Shown in pieces: positions 30,342-36,768 of a DNA stretch of 64,000 nucleotides; within the stretch, counting starts at the first letter, position 1, and each line of letters begins with the position of its first letter. Source of the stretch: Escherichia coli (GTDB lineage Bacteria; Pseudomonadota; Gammaproteobacteria; Enterobacterales; Enterobacteriaceae); the NCBI RefSeq assembly GCF_013315695.1, contig NZ_CP054353.1, one strand, 5' to 3'. The notes under the pieces are model-generated. The model was not told the origin of the DNA and did no database searches. It saw nothing but the letters and a program-made list of their open reading frames with translations. Both the position numbers and the translations under genes were made by a program.

Positions 30342-31364
30342 ATGTCACTAACCAGACGGAGGTTTACACAGATTCTTGCGTCGACATTGTTCCTGCATCA
30401 TCTGCCGTCCTTTGCACAATCAGTCAAATTCTGGGCCTCACTGACGCTTCCCGAAGCCCAAAACATTACACGCATCGTCAGCGCAGGCGCGCCCGCCGAT
30501 TTACTATTGCTGGCTGTCGCGCCAGAAAAAATGGTCGGTTTTTCCTCTTTTGATTTTGCCCGTCAGGCATTAATTCCATTGCCAGAGCACATTCGCCAGT
30601 TCCCCAGGCTGGGACGACTCGCCGGGCGCGCCAGCACACTCTCGCTGGAAGGGCTTATGGCGTTACATCCCGATTTGGTCGTTGATTGCGGCAATACGGA
30701 TGAAACCTGGATCTCCCAGGCACGGCAGGTTAGCGAACAGACACAAATACCCTGGTTATTGCTTAACGGGAAACTGGAACAATCAGCAGAACAGTTAACA
30801 ACGCTTGGCAAAACGTTAGGCGAAGAGCACCGCGCCACAGAACAAGCCAATCTCGCCAGCCGCTTCGTTGGTGAAGCTCAGGCATTCGCCACCTCACCCG
30901 CCGCTAACCTCAGCTTTTATGCTGCGCGCGGTCCTCGAGGGCTGGAAACGGGCTTACAGGGTTCGTTGCATACCGAGGCGGCAGAATTATTAGGTTTGCA
31001 TAACGTCGCGCAAATAGCCGATCGCCACGGTCTGACACAGGTTTCCATGGAAAATCTCCTGCGCTGGCAGCCGGATATTATTCTGGTTCAGGAGGCCGTT
31101 ACTGCAGATTTTATTCGTCGTGATCCTCTCTGGCAGGGCGTGAAAGCGGTTGCGGAACAACGCATCTTATTTTTAAGTGGCCTGCCCTTTGGCTGGCTGG
31201 ATGCCCCGCCGGGAATCAACCGTCTTCTGGGATTACGCAGACTTCACGCCTGGCTGGATCCCGCCATCAATCGTCAGTTTAAAAGTGACATGCAGCATTA
31301 TGCCCAACTGTTCTGGCATTGTTCACTCAGTGACGCCGACTATCAAAAATTGGTGGCGAGCTAA
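30342..31364 (+). CDS. ABC transporter periplasmic substrate-binding protein (FecB/FhuD/BtuF-like), twin-arginine signal
   Basis: 340 aa from MSLTRRRFTQILASTLFLHHLPSFAQS (Tat-like TRRRF motif); first gene of a six-gene operon. Confidence 0.8.
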   Translation: MSLTRRRFTQILASTLFLHHLPSFAQSVKFWASLTLPEAQNITRIVSAGAPADLLLLAVAPEKMVGFSSFDFARQALIPLPEHIRQFPRLGRLAGRASTLSLEGLMALHPDLVVDCGNTDETWISQARQVSEQTQIPWLLLNGKLEQSAEQLTTLGKTLGEEHRATEQANLASRFVGEAQAFATSPAANLSFYAARGPRGLETGLQGSLHTEAAELLGLHNVAQIADRHGLTQVSMENLLRWQPDIILVQEAVTADFIRRDPLWQGVKAVAEQRILFLSGLPFGWLDAPPGINRLLGLRRLHAWLDPAINRQFKSDMQHYAQLFWHCSLSDADYQKLVAS

Positions 31365-32344
31365 TGAGAACCGTAAACGGATGTATTTTGCTGCTGGCAG
31401 CTATCAGTATCACTTTTGCCGCCGTAAGTGGGGCTTATCATCTCGATATGCAGCAATTGCTGGCGCTCATTCTTCGTCAAGAAAATGTTCCTGTGCAGGA
31501 ACAAATTGTCTTCTGGCAAATCCGCGTGCCGCGTATTCTTGCTGCGCTGTTTCTGGGCGCGGCGCTGGCAGGGGCCGGAACCACCTATCAGGGAATGTTC
31601 CGTAATCCCTTAGTGTCACCGGATATTTTAGGCGTCTCCGCCGGTGCCGGACTTGGTGCCTGCGCGGCAATCCTGTGGGGATTATCCATTGTTTACATCC
31701 AGCTGTACGCATTTTGCGGCGGGCTGATGGTGGTCGCGGGCGTCTGGTTGATTACGCGTCGGGTGACCCGCCACGATCCGATCTTAACCCTGGTGCTGGT
31801 AGGTATTGCGTTAGGCACGTTGTGCGGAGCGGGGATATCGCTAATAAAAACGCTGGCCGATCCTTACACCCAGTTACCGTCAATTACCTTCTGGTTGCTG
31901 GGGGGGCTGTCCACCGTGACCTTACGCGATCTCTGCTATGCTGCACCGATCATTCTCATAGGCTCCTTGCCCCTGTTTTTTCTCCGCTGGCGCATGAATT
32001 TACTCACACTTTCCGACGACGAAGCCCGTTCGCTGGGACTGAACGTGACACGTCTGCGCTTTGGATTAATTGTCTGCGCCACACTCATCACCGCCAGCAC
32101 GGTAGCAATAGCGGGCATAATTGGTTGGGTCGGCCTGGTCGTTCCGCACATTGCCCGCTTGTTGACCGGTCATAACCATCAGCAGCTGTTGCCCATGGCA
32201 ATGTGTACTGGCGCGATTCTGCTCCTGCTTACCGATACGCTGGCACGCAGCATTGGAACAACAGAAATCCCACTTGGCATTCTGACCGCTTTTGTTGGTG
32301 CACCGTTTTTCCTGTTTTTGTTGTTACGCGGAGGTCGCCAGTGA
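31364..32344 (+). CDS. ABC transporter permease, FecCD/BtuC family
   Basis: 326-aa polytopic membrane protein; start overlaps upstream stop. Confidence 0.85.
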   Translation: MRTVNGCILLLAAISITFAAVSGAYHLDMQQLLALILRQENVPVQEQIVFWQIRVPRILAALFLGAALAGAGTTYQGMFRNPLVSPDILGVSAGAGLGACAAILWGLSIVYIQLYAFCGGLMVVAGVWLITRRVTRHDPILTLVLVGIALGTLCGAGISLIKTLADPYTQLPSITFWLLGGLSTVTLRDLCYAAPIILIGSLPLFFLRWRMNLLTLSDDEARSLGLNVTRLRFGLIVCATLITASTVAIAGIIGWVGLVVPHIARLLTGHNHQQLLPMAMCTGAILLLLTDTLARSIGTTEIPLGILTAFVGAPFFLFLLLRGGRQ

Positions 32345-34772: not shown

Positions 34773-34797
34773 TTCTTTGTTAAACGGAATTTATTCT

Positions 34798-36768
34798 ATG
34801 AGACTCAAAAAACGTTATCTCTGCACAGCATTATCACTTGCCTTTACCCAGCAGGCCGTAGCGGCTCAGGAGAGTGACACGCTGACCGTATGGTCCAGTC
34901 CGGTATCATCAACGACGACCACCGTTCTCGATCAACCCACCATGAAGGCCCTGGATAAACAGAATGTCGCTCAGGCATTAAGTGTCGTCCCCGGCGTGGT
35001 GCTGCAAAAGTCAGGTAGCCGCAACGAAGAACAGGTCAAAGTTCGTGGCTTTGATAGTCGTCAGGTGCCGGTCTATTTCGACGGTGTGCCCATTTATGTT
35101 CCCTATGACGGCAACCTCGATCTGGCGCGGATTCTGACCAACAATTTGGGGGCAGTTGAAGTTTCCAAAGGGTATTCGTCGCTGCTTCAGGGGCCTAATC
35201 AGATGGGCGGAGCCATTAATATCACCACCCAGAAGCCAACAAAACCTCTGGAAGCAAATCTGGGATATCGCCAGGGATGGAGCCGTAGCCAGGACAATGC
35301 CTACGATATGCATGCTTCATTTGCCGCCAGCAGCGATCTGGGGTATTTGCAAGTCAGCGGTAGCCAGCTAAAGCAGGATTTTCTCGGCCTGCCGCATGGT
35401 GTAAATAATGATATTGCAGGCAAACACGGCAAGATGATTAATTCATCGGCTGATGATAAACGCGGCATTGTGAAGCTCGGTTTTACACCACGCGAAAACG
35501 ATGAATACACAGTGACTTACATTAAGCAGGATGGTGAAAAAGATAACCCGCCATACAGTGGAAATAGTGGTCAAAAATCACGCTACTGGCAGTGGCCAGA
35601 GTATGACAAAGAAAGTTTTTATTATCAGGGAACGACCCAACTAAACGATCGTTTTACCCTGAAAAGTCGGCTGTATCGCGACACCTTTGAAAATACGCTA
35701 ATGATGTACAACTCGCTGGCTGATTTGAAAAATAAAAAAGGCAGCTACAGCCATTATTCCGATTACAGCGACGGTGCCGGGTTACAACTGGCAGCCGATG
35801 TGCGTGAAAACGATCTGCTGTCGTTTGCCGTTAACTGGAAAGATGACGTACACCGGGAAAAAGGTGCGCCACACGCCGCTTACGATCGCTATGAAGATCG
35901 TACCTGGTCGCTCGCCAGTGAATATCAATGGGCTGCTGCCGATAATGTCGATGTCGTGGCTGGAATCAGCTATGACTGGCGCGATAGCGTAGAAGCGAAA
36001 AAACATGAGAAAGATGGCAGTATCACCCATTATGACGACAACAATCAGTCAGCTTTTAACTGGCAGGTGATGGGGAAATACCACTTTGCCAATGAAGACA
36101 CGCTGGCGCTTTCGTACTATGACCGCACACGCTTTCCGACGCTGAAAGAACGCTATACCACGTCCAAACCTGCGTATAACCAGATAGCGATTGTTAACCC
36201 GCAGCTCAAACCGGAACGCGCGCGCGGGGTGGATTTAACCTGGAATGGTGCCTTCACGCACGACTGGGGGTTTGAGGTCAGCGTTTACTATAACCGGGTG
36301 AGTGATGCCATCCTCTCGCACAATATCGATGCCGATACCATTCAAAATCAGAACAGCGGCACGGTGGATTACAGCGGTCTGGATGCCGGTATTAAGGGGA
36401 AAATCAGCAATATACTGGATGTAGGATTGAGCTACGCCCTGATCCACGCTGACGCCAAACGCAAAGACATCGGCAAGATAACCGATCTGCCAACGCAGAC
36501 AATGACCGCATGGATGACTCTCAAACCGTGGGAGCCGTTAAGCGTAACGCTGTCGGAAGAGGCGCGTTCCTCCAGCTACAGCAACAGTGACGGTTCACAA
36601 AAAGCCGCCGGTTTTGCGGTGACTCACATTCGAGCCGATTACACCTTAGGTCATGGCTTCAGCGTCAATGCGTCGGTCAATAACCTGTTTGATACCAAAT
36701 ATGCCTACAGTGAAGGGTTTATTGAAGAAGGTCGCAATTTCTGGGCAGGTATCGAGTATACGTTCTGA
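34798..36768 (+). CDS. TonB-dependent outer membrane receptor (BtuB-sized)
   Basis: 656 aa from MRLKKRYLCTALSLAFTQQAVAAQ signal peptide; TonB box DTLTVWS; plug then beta-barrel ending in aromatic ...GIEYTF. Confidence 0.85.
   Translation: MRLKKRYLCTALSLAFTQQAVAAQESDTLTVWSSPVSSTTTTVLDQPTMKALDKQNVAQALSVVPGVVLQKSGSRNEEQVKVRGFDSRQVPVYFDGVPIYVPYDGNLDLARILTNNLGAVEVSKGYSSLLQGPNQMGGAINITTQKPTKPLEANLGYRQGWSRSQDNAYDMHASFAASSDLGYLQVSGSQLKQDFLGLPHGVNNDIAGKHGKMINSSADDKRGIVKLGFTPRENDEYTVTYIKQDGEKDNPPYSGNSGQKSRYWQWPEYDKESFYYQGTTQLNDRFTLKSRLYRDTFENTLMMYNSLADLKNKKGSYSHYSDYSDGAGLQLAADVRENDLLSFAVNWKDDVHREKGAPHAAYDRYEDRTWSLASEYQWAAADNVDVVAGISYDWRDSVEAKKHEKDGSITHYDDNNQSAFNWQVMGKYHFANEDTLALSYYDRTRFPTLKERYTTSKPAYNQIAIVNPQLKPERARGVDLTWNGAFTHDWGFEVSVYYNRVSDAILSHNIDADTIQNQNSGTVDYSGLDAGIKGKISNILDVGLSYALIHADAKRKDIGKITDLPTQTMTAWMTLKPWEPLSVTLSEEARSSSYSNSDGSQKAAGFAVTHIRADYTLGHGFSVNASVNNLFDTKYAYSEGFIEEGRNFWAGIEYTF

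What the first reader, a model, noticed from the sequence alone, without database searches (positions are those of the whole stretch)
30342..36768. Six-gene accessory uptake operon between treA and ymgE that I cannot assign to a named system
Six co-directional ORFs with overlapping or near-abutting junctions form one apparent operon: Tat-signal substrate-binding protein, FecCD/BtuC-type permease, ABC ATPase, class I SAM methyltransferase, ModD/NadC-like phosphoribosyltransferase-family protein and a BtuB-sized TonB-dependent receptor. From memory, K-12 has only the small gene ycgY between treA and ymgE, so this is strain-variable accessory DNA. Classical siderophore, heme or B12 uptake loci do not normally carry a methyltransferase plus a ModD-like enzyme inside the transporter operon, so the substrate may be a modified small-molecule chelate.
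Basis: partly seen in the sequence, partly recalled or inferred. Interest (0 to 1): 0.8.

Follow-up and report, generated by a model that had tools for sequence, protein, structure and literature searches.

The report
Molybdate-regulated TonB-dependent uptake operon
The six genes are real and form one operon. Databases label it an iron transporter, but it carries a conserved binding site for the molybdate sensor ModE and resembles the Haemophilus MolBC-A molybdate/tungstate importer, so it most likely scavenges molybdenum (or tungsten) across both membranes in about 40% of E. coli and many related gut pathogens.

Summary
Six co-directional, overlapping or abutting genes (window 30342-36768) encode a Tat-signal class III binding protein, a FecCD permease, an ABC ATPase, a class I SAM methyltransferase, ModD and a TonB-dependent receptor. 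They lie between treA and ymgE, where K-12 has ycgY.

Three new points came out:
- **Regulation.** A perfect ModE (molybdate sensor) operator, CGCTATAT-N8-ATATAGCG, overlaps the -10 region 24 nt before the first ATG, as at modA. It is conserved in 50 of 51 orthologous operons across Enterobacterales, and a second copy precedes the receptor gene wherever that gene has its own spacer. I found no Fur box and no riboswitch.
- **Closest relative.** The permease's closest solved relative is MolB (HI1471) of the H. influenzae MolBC-A molybdate/tungstate importer, which is also linked to modD.
- **Origin.** The locus is syntenic in E. albertii, Citrobacter, Raoultella and Enterobacter. It is therefore ancestral and was lost in K-12-type strains, not acquired as an island.

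Best reading: a ModE-repressed, TonB-dependent Mo/W acquisition system. The chemical form of the substrate and the roles of the methyltransferase and ModD remain unknown. I rate it a new variant of a known kind, with moderately high interest.

The parts
29497..30264 (+). IS1A insertion (768 bp). Target duplication is CAAATTTT at 29489-29496 and 30265-30272. It abuts the -35 of the operon promoter. It is not part of the system and is a rare strain-specific event.
   Evidence: Sequence read. IS1A transposase annotated. The same junction occurs in only 2 of 5426 genomes. 2141 genomes have the uninterrupted promoter.
30271..30276 (+). Putative -35 hexamer TTGACA. It is retained downstream of IS1 because its first two T's lie in the duplicated target.
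   Evidence: TTGA is invariant across genera in alignment A2. It lies 17 nt upstream of the ModE box, so the -10 falls inside the left half-site. The promoter assignment is inferred, not mapped.
30294..30317 (.). ModE (molybdate-responsive regulator) operator, CGCTATAT-GTGTAAGT-ATATAGCG. It ends 24 nt before the first ATG.
   Evidence: - It is the only match in the 64-kb window (0.05 expected by chance).
- It has the same 8+8+8 architecture as the K-12 modA operator (CGTTATATTGTCGCCTACATAACG) and the moaA operator (CGCTATATACATGATTACATAGCG).
- It matches the published consensus ATCGnTATATA-N6-TATATAnCGAT (PMC545781; PMC2700814).
- It is conserved in 50 of 51 orthologous operons, with no other hits in those loci.
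- The N positions are not complementary (17/45), so this is a protein-binding site and not an RNA hairpin.
30342..31364 (+). Periplasmic substrate-binding protein (340 aa), class III (Peripla_BP_2), with a Tat signal peptide.
   Evidence: - Pfam assignment.
- PDB sequence search: 4pag 95 bits; MolA (HI_1472) 34.5 bits.
- The AlphaFold model has pLDDT 92. Foldseek ranks 4pag first (TM 0.81-0.85) and MolA 3psa as the best characterised hit (E 2e-16, TM 0.66-0.68, 20% identity).
- The RR motif is conserved in 45 of 50 orthologues.
31364..32344 (+). Type II ABC importer permease (FecCD/BtuC fold), MolB-like.
   Evidence: The best solved relative is HI1471 MolB (2nq2_A): 222 bits, E 9e-65, 43% identity over 313 residues. 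The next hits are FhuB 175, HmuU 168 and BtuC 146 bits. NCBIfam gives no equivalog above cut-off.
32341..33099 (+). ABC ATPase, MolC-like.
   Evidence: The best single-domain solved relative is HI1470 MolC (126.5 bits). NCBIfam gives only sub-threshold hits.
33109..33921 (+). Class I SAM-dependent methyltransferase (270 aa), cytoplasmic. Acceptor unknown.
   Evidence: - Pfam Methyltransf_25/31/11.
- No close solved relative.
- The model has pLDDT 90. Its fold neighbours are small-molecule N/O/S-methyltransferases at TM 0.5-0.6.
- A methyltransferase accompanies the SBP-FecCD-ABC module in distant bacteria that lack ModD.
33918..34772 (+). ModD (284 aa), a paralogue of quinolinate phosphoribosyltransferase. 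It is translationally coupled to the methyltransferase gene (ATGA overlap).
   Evidence: - TIGR01334 at 500 bits.
- 76 bits to M. tuberculosis QAPRTase.
- The TRK, HR, Glu195, Asp216 and GG motifs are kept, but the Lys-Asp of the 'IKDNH' segment is Phe163-Ala164.
- ModD is linked to Mo transport genes in H. influenzae, Geobacter, Yersinia alsatica and the Zymomonas nif cluster.
34798..36768 (+). TonB-dependent outer-membrane transporter (656 aa) with signal peptide, TonB box DTLTVWS, plug and 22-strand-type barrel domains.
   Evidence: - Pfam assignment.
- No close characterised relative.
- Orthologues with a spacer of at least 119 bp carry their own ModE box (25 of 51 loci).
- The 45%-identical P. 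aeruginosa homologue lies beside moaA1 and narIJHG, behind a ModE-like palindrome.

Best explanation
This is a molybdate-responsive acquisition system for molybdenum (and probably tungsten) that spans both membranes. It is wrongly labelled 'iron' in genome annotation.

**Proposed mechanism**
1. When cytoplasmic molybdate is sufficient, ModE-molybdate binds the palindrome that overlaps the -10 region and start site of the single promoter and shuts off all six genes, as it does at modABC.
2. When molybdate is scarce, the operon is expressed.
3. The TonB-dependent receptor actively brings the Mo/W species across the outer membrane.
4. The Tat-exported class III binding protein delivers it to a MolBC-like type II ABC importer.
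5. The two cytoplasmic enzymes, the SAM methyltransferase and the PRTase-like ModD, act on the imported species or on a metabolite needed to use it.

**Shown in silico**
- The gene set and domain families.
- The ModE operator and its conservation.
- The MolB and MolC relationship.
- Synteny and distribution.

**Inferred**
- Repression rather than activation, from the operator's position.
- Mo/W as the transported element.

**Unknown**
- Whether the substrate is the free oxyanion or a complex.
- What the methyltransferase and ModD do.
For: **Operator**
- A 14/14 match that is unique in the window.
- Same architecture and same distance to the ATG as the modA operator, and the same architecture as the moaA operator.
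- Matches the published consensus.

**Phylogenetic footprint**
- Upstream of the ATG, only TTGA(-35) and the palindrome are conserved from Escherichia to Raoultella.
- 50 of 51 six-gene loci in about 15 genera carry the box upstream of the SBP.
- 25 of 51 carry a second box before the receptor gene, and these are exactly the loci where that gene has its own spacer.
- There are no other hits in those roughly 800 kb. Across all 74 loci, 91 hits were seen against 6 in shuffles.
- The site consensus rebuilt from these loci is tCG(C/T)TATATA-N6-TATATA(A/G)CGAt.

**Relatives**
- The permease is 43% identical to MolB, its best solved relative. The ATPase is closest to MolC. MolA is the best characterised structural neighbour of the SBP.
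- MolBC-A binds and imports molybdate/tungstate, is repressed by molybdate, and is adjacent to modD.

**Independent genomic links to molybdenum**
- Yersinia alsatica has box-modA-like-permease-ATPase-ModD.
- Edwardsiella has box-MT-ModD, and separately box-SBP-FecCD-ABC-MT-TBDT.
- Another gammaproteobacterium has boxes before both the SBP and the TBDT, next to napBC.
- The P. aeruginosa receptor homologue lies next to moaA1 and narGHJI with a ModE-like palindrome.
- Distant SBP homologues lie next to XdhC, YqeC, SelD and DUF364. DUF364 is itself reported next to Mo/W transporters.

**Negative evidence**
- No Fur box and no riboswitch.
Against: - Nothing here is experimental for this locus. ModE binding, molybdate repression and Mo/W transport are all predictions.
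- The SBP is only about 20% identical to MolA, and other class III proteins (YiuA, haem binders) follow closely in the fold ranking. Ligand specificity is therefore open.
- MolA binds molybdate weakly (about 100 uM), and MolBC-A mattered only at high molybdate in H. influenzae. That fits poorly with an energy-coupled scavenging receptor.
- Molybdate is small enough to cross porins, and I know of no TonB-dependent receptor shown to carry it.
- ModE also activates some promoters, so the direction of control rests on position alone.
- The roles of the methyltransferase and ModD are unexplained.
Confidence: 0.75

Rival explanations
1. The system imports an organic molybdenum (or tungsten) complex rather than the free oxyanion. 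Candidates are a catecholate-molybdate complex, a thiomolybdate-type species, or a molybdopterin-type cofactor fragment from the host or dead cells. The methyltransferase and ModD would dismantle or recycle the ligand in the cytoplasm to release the metal.

This is a variant of the best explanation: same regulation and same element, but a different substrate.
For: - Receptor plus type II ABC importer is the standard architecture for bulky chelates, and the nearest fold relatives after MolA bind Fe-catecholates, haem and B12.
- The weak affinity of MolA for free molybdate (about 100 uM) suggests the free oxyanion may not be the true ligand.
- A small-molecule-type methyltransferase travels with this transporter subfamily in distant phyla.
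- ModD keeps most PRPP and substrate-binding residues of QAPRTase but changes two pocket residues. This is consistent with an N-heteroaromatic acid substrate other than quinolinate.
Against: - MolA crystal structures hold bare molybdate/tungstate (PDB 3psa/3psh titles).
- MT-ModD occurs alone behind a ModE box in Edwardsiella, and ModD occurs with ModABC-type oxyanion transporters in Yersinia alsatica, H. influenzae and Geobacter. Its job therefore does not depend on this receptor or importer.
- No ligand-biosynthesis or export genes are in the operon.
Confidence: 0.25
2. It is what the databases say: an iron-chelate (siderophore, haem or ferric citrate-like) uptake system. ModD and the methyltransferase would be unrelated passengers.
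For: - RefSeq names the genes 'iron ABC transporter substrate-binding protein' and 'FecCD family'.
- There are weak sub-threshold NCBIfam hits to FecB, FecCD, and siderophore and haemin receptors.
- YiuA and haem-binding proteins appear among the fold neighbours.
Against: - No hit reaches any curated cut-off.
- There is no Fur box. The best match is 13/19, and 28 equally good matches occur elsewhere in the window.
- The only conserved upstream element is a ModE operator.
- Gene order including MT and ModD is conserved down to 44% identity, so they are not passengers.
- The best solved relative of the permease is the molybdate importer MolB.
Confidence: 0.05
3. It imports a corrinoid or other tetrapyrrole. 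The hints are the BtuC-like permease, a BtuB-sized receptor, and a methyltransferase with faint similarity to precorrin and corrinoid-associated methyltransferases.
For: - The permease's top NCBIfam hits are BtuC models (243 bits, below the 461 cut-off).
- The MT's best hit is CpaM (43 bits, cut-off 180), with a Mg-protoporphyrin methyltransferase hit at 34 bits.
- There are precorrin methylase hits in the PDB at E about 8e-4.
Against: - No cobalamin riboswitch or any Rfam match in the leader.
- All hits are far below the cut-offs.
- MolB outranks BtuC by 76 bits.
- The ModE operator and the Mo-gene neighbourhoods have no link to corrinoids.
Confidence: 0.03
4. The palindrome is not a regulator site. 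It would instead be an RNA hairpin (a treA terminator or leader attenuator) or a chance AT-rich repeat, and the operon's regulation is unknown.
For: The consensus scan lists it as terminator-like, with an 11-pair stem followed by TTTT.
Against: - The stem is AT-rich (3 G-C pairs).
- The conserved letters are the ModE half-site letters, including flanking T and A.
- The positions free in the ModE consensus are non-complementary in most species (17/45 and 2/23 complementary).
- A second copy sits before the receptor gene in 25 loci.
- The same motif precedes modA-like genes, MT-ModD pairs and the P. aeruginosa homologue.
Confidence: 0.02

Closest known systems
MolBC-A (HI1470/HI1471/HI1472), the 'secondary' molybdate/tungstate ABC importer of Haemophilus influenzae, with adjacent modD (HI1473)
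   Same: - Type II (BtuCD-fold) importer with a class III binding protein.
- The permease is 43% identical to MolB and MolB is its best solved match. The ATPase is closest to MolC. MolA is the best characterised structural neighbour of the SBP.
- Both are genetically linked to modD.
- Transcription is repressed by molybdate in H. influenzae, and a ModE operator is predicted here.
   Different: - The E. coli-type operon adds a TonB-dependent receptor and a SAM methyltransferase, and has a Tat-signal SBP only about 20% identical to MolA.
- The gene listing for HI1469-HI1475 shows no receptor or methyltransferase, and shows instead a ModA-like protein and a CysU/SalX pair.
- The regulator of the H. 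influenzae operon was called 'unknown'.
- No substrate has been tested for the E. coli system.
ModE regulon / modABC operator of E. coli K-12
   Same: The operator has the same sequence architecture (CGnTATAT-N8-ATATAnCG) and the same placement over the -10/start region about 20-25 nt before the first ATG. This implies repression by molybdate-ModE.
   Different: - The controlled transporter is a type II importer with an outer-membrane receptor, not the type I ModABC.
- The locus is absent from K-12, where the regulon was defined.
- Binding has not been tested.
TonB-dependent receptor plus type II ABC importer pathways (BtuB-BtuFCD for B12; FhuA-FhuDBC, FecA-FecBCDE and HemR-HmuTUV for iron chelates)
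   Same: Overall architecture: a TonB-box receptor, a class III periplasmic binding protein (FhuD is also Tat-dependent, from general knowledge), a FecCD-fold permease and an ATPase.
   Different: - No Fur box and no B12 riboswitch.
- No protein reaches any curated family cut-off.
- Two cytoplasmic enzymes are embedded in the operon.
- Regulation is by the Mo sensor.
TonB-dependent receptors for non-iron metals (ZnuD for zinc, OprC/NosA for copper, FrpB4 for nickel). Recalled from general knowledge, not tested here.
   Same: They set the precedent that a receptor under a dedicated metal sensor can import a metal other than iron. Here the receptor gene carries a ModE box of its own in 25 loci.
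   Different: No close sequence relationship: the TonB-copper model scores 50 bits against a cut-off of 472. An oxyanion substrate would be new for this protein class.
Quinolinate phosphoribosyltransferase NadC (for ModD)
   Same: Same two-domain fold family (QRPTase_N/C). The Thr-Arg-Lys, His-Arg, Glu, Asp and Gly-Gly motifs that bind quinolinate and PRPP in the M. tuberculosis enzyme are retained. Their roles are recalled from general knowledge.
   Different: - ModD is a separate family (TIGR01334, function unknown; nadC model 134 bits, below its cut-off of 198).
- Lys-Asp of the 'IKDNH' segment is replaced by Phe-Ala.
- It always sits with Mo transport genes rather than NAD genes.

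Membership tests
MolBC-A type molybdate/tungstate type II ABC importer | Permease of BtuC/FecCD fold that is specifically closest to MolB (HI1471) | tested here: met
   2nq2_A scores 222 bits, E 9e-65, with 43% identity over 313 residues. The next hits are FhuB 175, HmuU 168 and BtuC 146 bits.
MolBC-A type molybdate/tungstate type II ABC importer | Cognate class III binding protein of the MolA type | tested here: inconclusive
   Sequence gives only 34.5 bits to HI_1472 over residues 214-287. 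By fold, MolA is the best characterised hit (E 2e-16, TM 0.66-0.68, 20% identity), but the uncharacterised 4pag is much closer and YiuA and haem binders follow closely.
MolBC-A type molybdate/tungstate type II ABC importer | Binding protein binds molybdate/tungstate, and the transporter imports it | not testable with these tools
   Needs ITC or crystallography and uptake assays. For MolA/MolBC this was shown experimentally.
MolBC-A type molybdate/tungstate type II ABC importer | Linkage to modD and control by molybdate | tested here: met
   modD is inside the operon. HI1473 modD lies next to molABC. molB is repressed by molybdate. A conserved ModE operator is present here. Regulation is predicted only.
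ModE regulon | Inverted repeat matching ATCGnTATATA-N6-TATATAnCGAT in the promoter region | tested here: met
   - 14 of 14 scored core positions match; one mismatch against the full half-sites.
- Unique in the window.
- Compared directly with the modA and moaA operators.
- Consensus taken.
ModE regulon | Conservation of the site in orthologous promoters | tested here: met
   50 of 51 loci carry it, and 25 carry a second site before the receptor gene. There are no other hits in those loci, and 6 hits in shuffles against 91 observed across all loci.
ModE regulon | ModE-molybdate binds the site and changes transcription | not testable with these tools
   Requires EMSA or footprinting and reporter assays.
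TonB-dependent transporter | Signal peptide, TonB box, plug domain, beta-barrel domain | tested here: met
   Plug covers residues 39-139 and the barrel 219-630. The signal peptide MRLKKRYLCTALSLAFTQQAVA and the box DTLTVWS were read from the translation.
ModD (TIGR01334) | Score above the curated cut-off of the ModD model | tested here: met
   500.2 bits against a cut-off of 178.85. The nadC model scores 134.5, below its cut-off of 198.4.
Fur-regulated iron-chelate uptake locus | Fur box in the promoter, and membership of a curated siderophore or haem transporter family | tested here: not met
   The best Fur match is 13/19, at background level. All iron-family hits are below their cut-offs.
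Cobalamin uptake (BtuB/BtuFCD-like) | Cobalamin riboswitch in the leader, and equivalog-level match to BtuB, BtuC or BtuF | tested here: not met
   No Rfam match at E<=1 in 28500-37500 apart from one chance sRNA hit outside the leader. BtuB scores 80 bits against a cut-off of 600, and BtuC 243 against 461.
Horizontally acquired genomic island | Atypical composition, mobility genes or a tRNA at the borders, and no synteny in relatives | tested here: not met
   G+C is 0.47-0.57, like the flanks. The locus sits at the same treA / ymgE-ycgR-emtA position in E. albertii, about 10 Citrobacter species, Raoultella, Enterobacter and Intestinirhabdus. The only mobile element is a recent IS1.

The most novel reading that the evidence does not exclude
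This may be the first TonB-dependent pathway for molybdenum or tungsten. A receptor family that carries ModE-type sites (E. coli, Citrobacter, Proteus, Providencia, Morganella, Edwardsiella; a ModE-like palindrome in P. aeruginosa) would actively import a Mo/W species that is not the free oxyanion. A conserved methyltransferase and the long-enigmatic ModD would then chemically dismantle or process its ligand to release the metal.

If so, gut and urinary pathogens have a dedicated answer to molybdenum limitation, and ModD finally gets a function.
Probability: 0.25. Interest if true: 0.85.

Novelty: new variant of a known kind. Interest (0 to 1): 0.66.

Why it matters
Molybdenum cofactor enzymes (nitrate, DMSO and TMAO reductases, and formate dehydrogenases) drive the expansion of Enterobacteriaceae in the inflamed gut and in the urinary tract. 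Textbook E. coli is said to take up molybdate only through ModABC, the sulfate system and an unidentified carrier.

A second, ModE-controlled system with its own outer-membrane receptor would have four consequences:
- **Annotation.** It would correct a widespread 'iron transporter' label. The system is present in about 40% of complete E. coli genomes, including O157:H7, and in Citrobacter, Proteus, Providencia, Morganella and Edwardsiella.
- **Receptor biology.** It would add Mo/W to the list of TonB-dependent substrates.
- **ModD and the methyltransferase.** It gives a concrete genetic handle on ModD and its partner methyltransferase, whose functions have been unknown since ModD was named.
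- **Strain differences.** It suggests a strain-variable factor in sensitivity to molybdenum limitation or to tungstate treatment.

All of this can be tested directly with standard genetics and ICP-MS.

Tried and rejected
- **Riboswitch or other RNA.** An Rfam scan of 28500-37500 at E<=1 found nothing in the leader.
- **Fur control.** A scan against the 19-bp consensus gave only background-level matches.
- **Literature, guessed O157 locus tags (Z1961-Z1966).** Only irrelevant hits; a wasted search.
- **Literature, modD + TonB / ModE + TonB-dependent + molybdate / 'molybdophore' / 'ModE regulon'.** No paper in the held library describes this operon. The Studholme & Pau ModE paper and the Tirado-Lee MolA paper are not held. 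The paper cap then stopped a look at the P. aeruginosa Mo-homeostasis paper.
- **Database names.** All six proteins carry only generic names.
- **Solved-structure sequence searches for the receptor and the methyltransferase.** No informative relative.
- **Fold search of the methyltransferase model.** Only generic small-molecule methyltransferases at TM 0.5-0.6, so no acceptor class can be named.
- **Island hypothesis.** Rejected by composition and synteny.
- **Hairpin or terminator reading of the palindrome.** Rejected by non-complementary variation.
- **Pocket analysis of the SBP.** Not possible because model coordinates are not exposed.

Full report
**1. Observation**

The window holds six + strand genes with overlapping or nearly abutting junctions:
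- SBP 30342-31364
- permease 31364-32344
- ATPase 32341-33099
- methyltransferase (MT) 33109-33921
- ModD 33918-34772
- TonB-dependent receptor (TBDT) 34798-36768

A chromosome 100% identical over 29000-37500 (E. coli AF3, NZ_OZ547117) is annotated with the same six genes between treA and ymgE. In that strain treA is a frameshifted pseudogene. K-12-type strains have ycgY at this position instead.

- Peripla_BP_2, and Plug plus barrel.
- FecCD/BtuC permease and ABC ATPase; ModD TIGR01334 at 500 bits.
- Class I methyltransferase and QRPTase domains.
- A twin-arginine signal, conserved in 45 of 50 orthologues.

An IS1A element (29497-30264, target duplication CAAATTTT) lies immediately upstream.

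**2. Distribution and origin**

The 8.5-kb region is present in 2137 of 5426 complete E. coli genomes, including O157:H7. The IS1 insertion is found in only two genomes.

The segment that differs from K-12 is 29238-36744, against 622 bp containing ycgY in K-12. Its G+C is ordinary.

The operon sits at the same place, between treA and ymgE/ycgR/emtA, in E. albertii, many Citrobacter species, Raoultella, Enterobacter and Intestinirhabdus. It is therefore an ancestral enterobacterial locus that some E. coli lineages lost. It is not an acquired island.

A scan of one genome per species with a ModD profile returned 74 loci. In 51 of them the order SBP-permease-ATPase-MT-ModD-TBDT is conserved down to 44-60% identity. 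The genera include Escherichia, Citrobacter, Raoultella, Klebsiella indica, Enterobacter, Serratia, Symbiopectobacterium, Proteus, Providencia, Morganella, Pectobacterium, Erwinia, Pantoea and Affinibrenneria.

**3. The regulatory site**

In the IS1-free promoter the only striking element is the perfect inverted repeat CGCTATAT-GTGTAAGT-ATATAGCG (window 30294-30317).

- It lies 17 nt downstream of a TTGACA and ends 24 nt before the ATG.
- It has the same architecture as the K-12 modA operator (CGTTATATTGTCGCCTACATAACG, which ends 19 nt before the modA ATG).
- It has the same architecture as the moaA ModE site (CGCTATATACATGATTACATAGCG).
- It fits the published consensus ATCGnTATATA-N6-TATATAnCGAT (PMC545781; PMC2700814).
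- It is the only such match in 64 kb, with 0.05 expected by chance.

Across genera the upstream region is unalignable except for TTGA of the -35 and this palindrome.

| Measure (threshold 12 of 14 core positions) | Result |
|---|---|
| Six-gene loci with a box upstream of the SBP gene | 50 of 51 |
| Six-gene loci with a second box in the ModD-TBDT spacer | 25 of 51 (exactly those with a spacer of at least 119 bp) |
| Other hits in those loci | 0 |
| Hits in the whole 1.08-Mb set, observed against block shuffles | 91 against 6 |

The consensus rebuilt from these sites, tCG(C/T)TATATA-N6-TATATA(A/G)CGAt, reproduces even the flanking letters of the ModE consensus. The positions that are free in that consensus are mostly non-complementary (17/45 and 2/23). 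This excludes selection for an RNA hairpin, although a simple scan flags the repeat as terminator-like.

There is no Fur box and no riboswitch.

The box covers the -10 and start region, as at modA. I therefore infer repression by ModE-molybdate, meaning expression under Mo limitation.

The IS1 in this strain leaves the -35 and the box intact, because the duplicated target supplies the first two T's of TTGACA. Control is probably retained.

**4. Relation to known systems**

| Protein | Closest solved relative | Score |
|---|---|---|
| Permease | HI1471 (MolB) | 222 bits, 43% identity; next FhuB 175, HmuU 168, BtuC 146 |
| ATPase | HI1470 (MolC), best single-domain match | 126.5 bits |
| SBP, by sequence | 4pag (uncharacterised); HI_1472 (MolA) weak | 95 bits; 34.5 bits |
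| SBP, by fold (model pLDDT 92) | 4pag, then MolA as best characterised hit | 4pag TM 0.81-0.85; MolA E 2e-16, TM 0.66-0.68 |

For the SBP fold ranking, other uncharacterised proteins, YiuA and haem binders follow closely after MolA.

What is known of MolBC-A:
- It is a type II importer whose binding protein binds molybdate and tungstate.
- It acts as a low-affinity molybdate importer in H. influenzae.
- It is repressed by molybdate through a factor the authors called unknown (PMC4031551).
- It lies in HI1469-HI1475 next to modD, and the cluster is described as the 'secondary molybdenum transporter' (PMC3928620).
- The same paper states that E. coli has only ModABC, the sulfate system and an unidentified carrier. 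It does not mention the homologue found in non-K-12 strains.

I found no paper in the held library that describes this operon, its ModE site or a TonB-dependent route for Mo. Databases give only generic or 'iron' names.

**5. Independent links to molybdenum**

- Yersinia alsatica has ModE box, modA-like gene, Mo-type permease, ATPase and ModD.
- Geobacter has modDABC behind a ModE site.
- The Zymomonas nif cluster holds modD, modE and two TonB receptors.
- Edwardsiella carries a box-MT-ModD pair at one place, and a 14/14 box-SBP-FecCD-ABC-MT-TBDT operon at another.
- A 41%-identical SBP in another gammaproteobacterium heads SBP-FecCD-ABC-MT-TBDT next to napBC, with ModE-like boxes 44 bp before the SBP and 54 bp before the receptor gene.
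- The P. aeruginosa core homologue of the receptor (45% identity) lies beside a small Oxidored_molyb gene, moaA1 and narIJHG. It is preceded, 15 nt before its ATG, by ATCGTTATGTA-N6-TGCATAACGA.
- More distant SBP homologues (26-37% identity) sit with FecCD, an ATPase and often a class I methyltransferase, a THEP1-like NTPase or DUF364, next to XdhC, YqeC and SelD.
- DUF364 is itself reported beside Mo/W transporters and is cofit with nif in Methanococcus.

**6. The two enzymes**

ModD:
- It keeps the Thr-Arg-Lys, His-Arg, Glu, Asp and Gly-Gly motifs of QAPRTase.
- It replaces Lys-Asp of the 'IKDNH' segment with Phe-Ala.
- It looks like an active phosphoribosyltransferase-type protein with a different pocket.

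The methyltransferase:
- It models confidently (pLDDT 90) as a small-molecule-type enzyme, but no acceptor class can be named.

ModD also accompanies ModABC-type oxyanion transporters, and MT-ModD can stand alone behind a ModE box. Their task is therefore tied to molybdenum limitation in general, not only to this receptor. What they do is unknown.

**7. Verdict**

The most likely function is a ModE-repressed, TonB-dependent, MolBC-A-like acquisition system for Mo (and W). My confidence is about 0.75 for the element and the regulation. The exact substrate is much less certain.

The main open alternative is that the cargo is an organic Mo complex processed by the methyltransferase and ModD. Iron, haem or corrinoid uptake is unlikely.

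It is a new variant of a known kind: a known importer family combined with an outer-membrane receptor and two enzymes under the Mo sensor, and mis-annotated as an iron system.

Noticed in passing
window 27540-29236: treA (periplasmic trehalase) just upstream is annotated as a frameshifted pseudogene in the strain identical to the window. It is independently frameshifted in an O157:H7 strain.
   Followed up: partly
window 29497-30264: IS1A is inserted directly against the -35 hexamer of the operon promoter. The target duplication regenerates TTGACA. The same insertion exists in only 2 of 5426 complete E. coli genomes: AF3 and MSB1_4I.
   Followed up: yes
L094 6963-6986 and 7001-16004 (Pseudomonas aeruginosa chromosome): The P. 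aeruginosa core homologue of the receptor (45% identity) sits next to a small Oxidored_molyb gene, moaA1, a rotamase and narIJHG. It is preceded by a ModE-like palindrome in an otherwise GC-rich region. I could not check whether this receptor has been studied.
   Followed up: partly
L045 6605-8349 and L096 3282-8968 (Edwardsiella): Edwardsiella splits the system. A ModE box-MT-ModD pair sits at one locus, and a ModE box-SBP-FecCD-ABC-MT-TBDT operon without ModD sits at another. There are therefore two methyltransferase paralogues.
   Followed up: partly
L083, L085, L087, L093: Distant homologues of the SBP (26-37% identity) occur with FecCD, an ATPase and a class I methyltransferase, a THEP1-like NTPase or a DUF2478-DUF4213-DUF364 protein. 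They sit next to XdhC, YqeC, SelD and TusA-type genes, that is, selenium-dependent molybdenum hydroxylase maturation contexts.
   Followed up: partly
protein collection, cluster 4: The methyltransferase and ModD fall into one 90%-identity cluster. This implies that a fused or read-through MT-ModD product has been called somewhere. The two genes overlap by ATGA in the window.
   Followed up: no
P0467; L008 6649-7033: Some Escherichia genomes lack ymgE after the receptor gene. One 720-aa gene call fuses the receptor to PilZ/YcgR domains. This is probably a deletion joining the receptor 3' end to ycgR.
   Followed up: no
window 36745-36768: Homology with K-12 resumes 24 bp before the receptor stop codon. 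The last codons of the receptor gene therefore lie in sequence shared with strains that lack the operon, which is consistent with loss by deletion or replacement in those strains.
   Followed up: partly
L018 (Citrobacter koseri NCTC10786): Almost every gene of the region (treA, the SBP, permease and ATPase genes, ymgE, ycgR, emtA) appears broken into pieces in this assembly. This is more likely assembly indel error than real decay.
   Followed up: no
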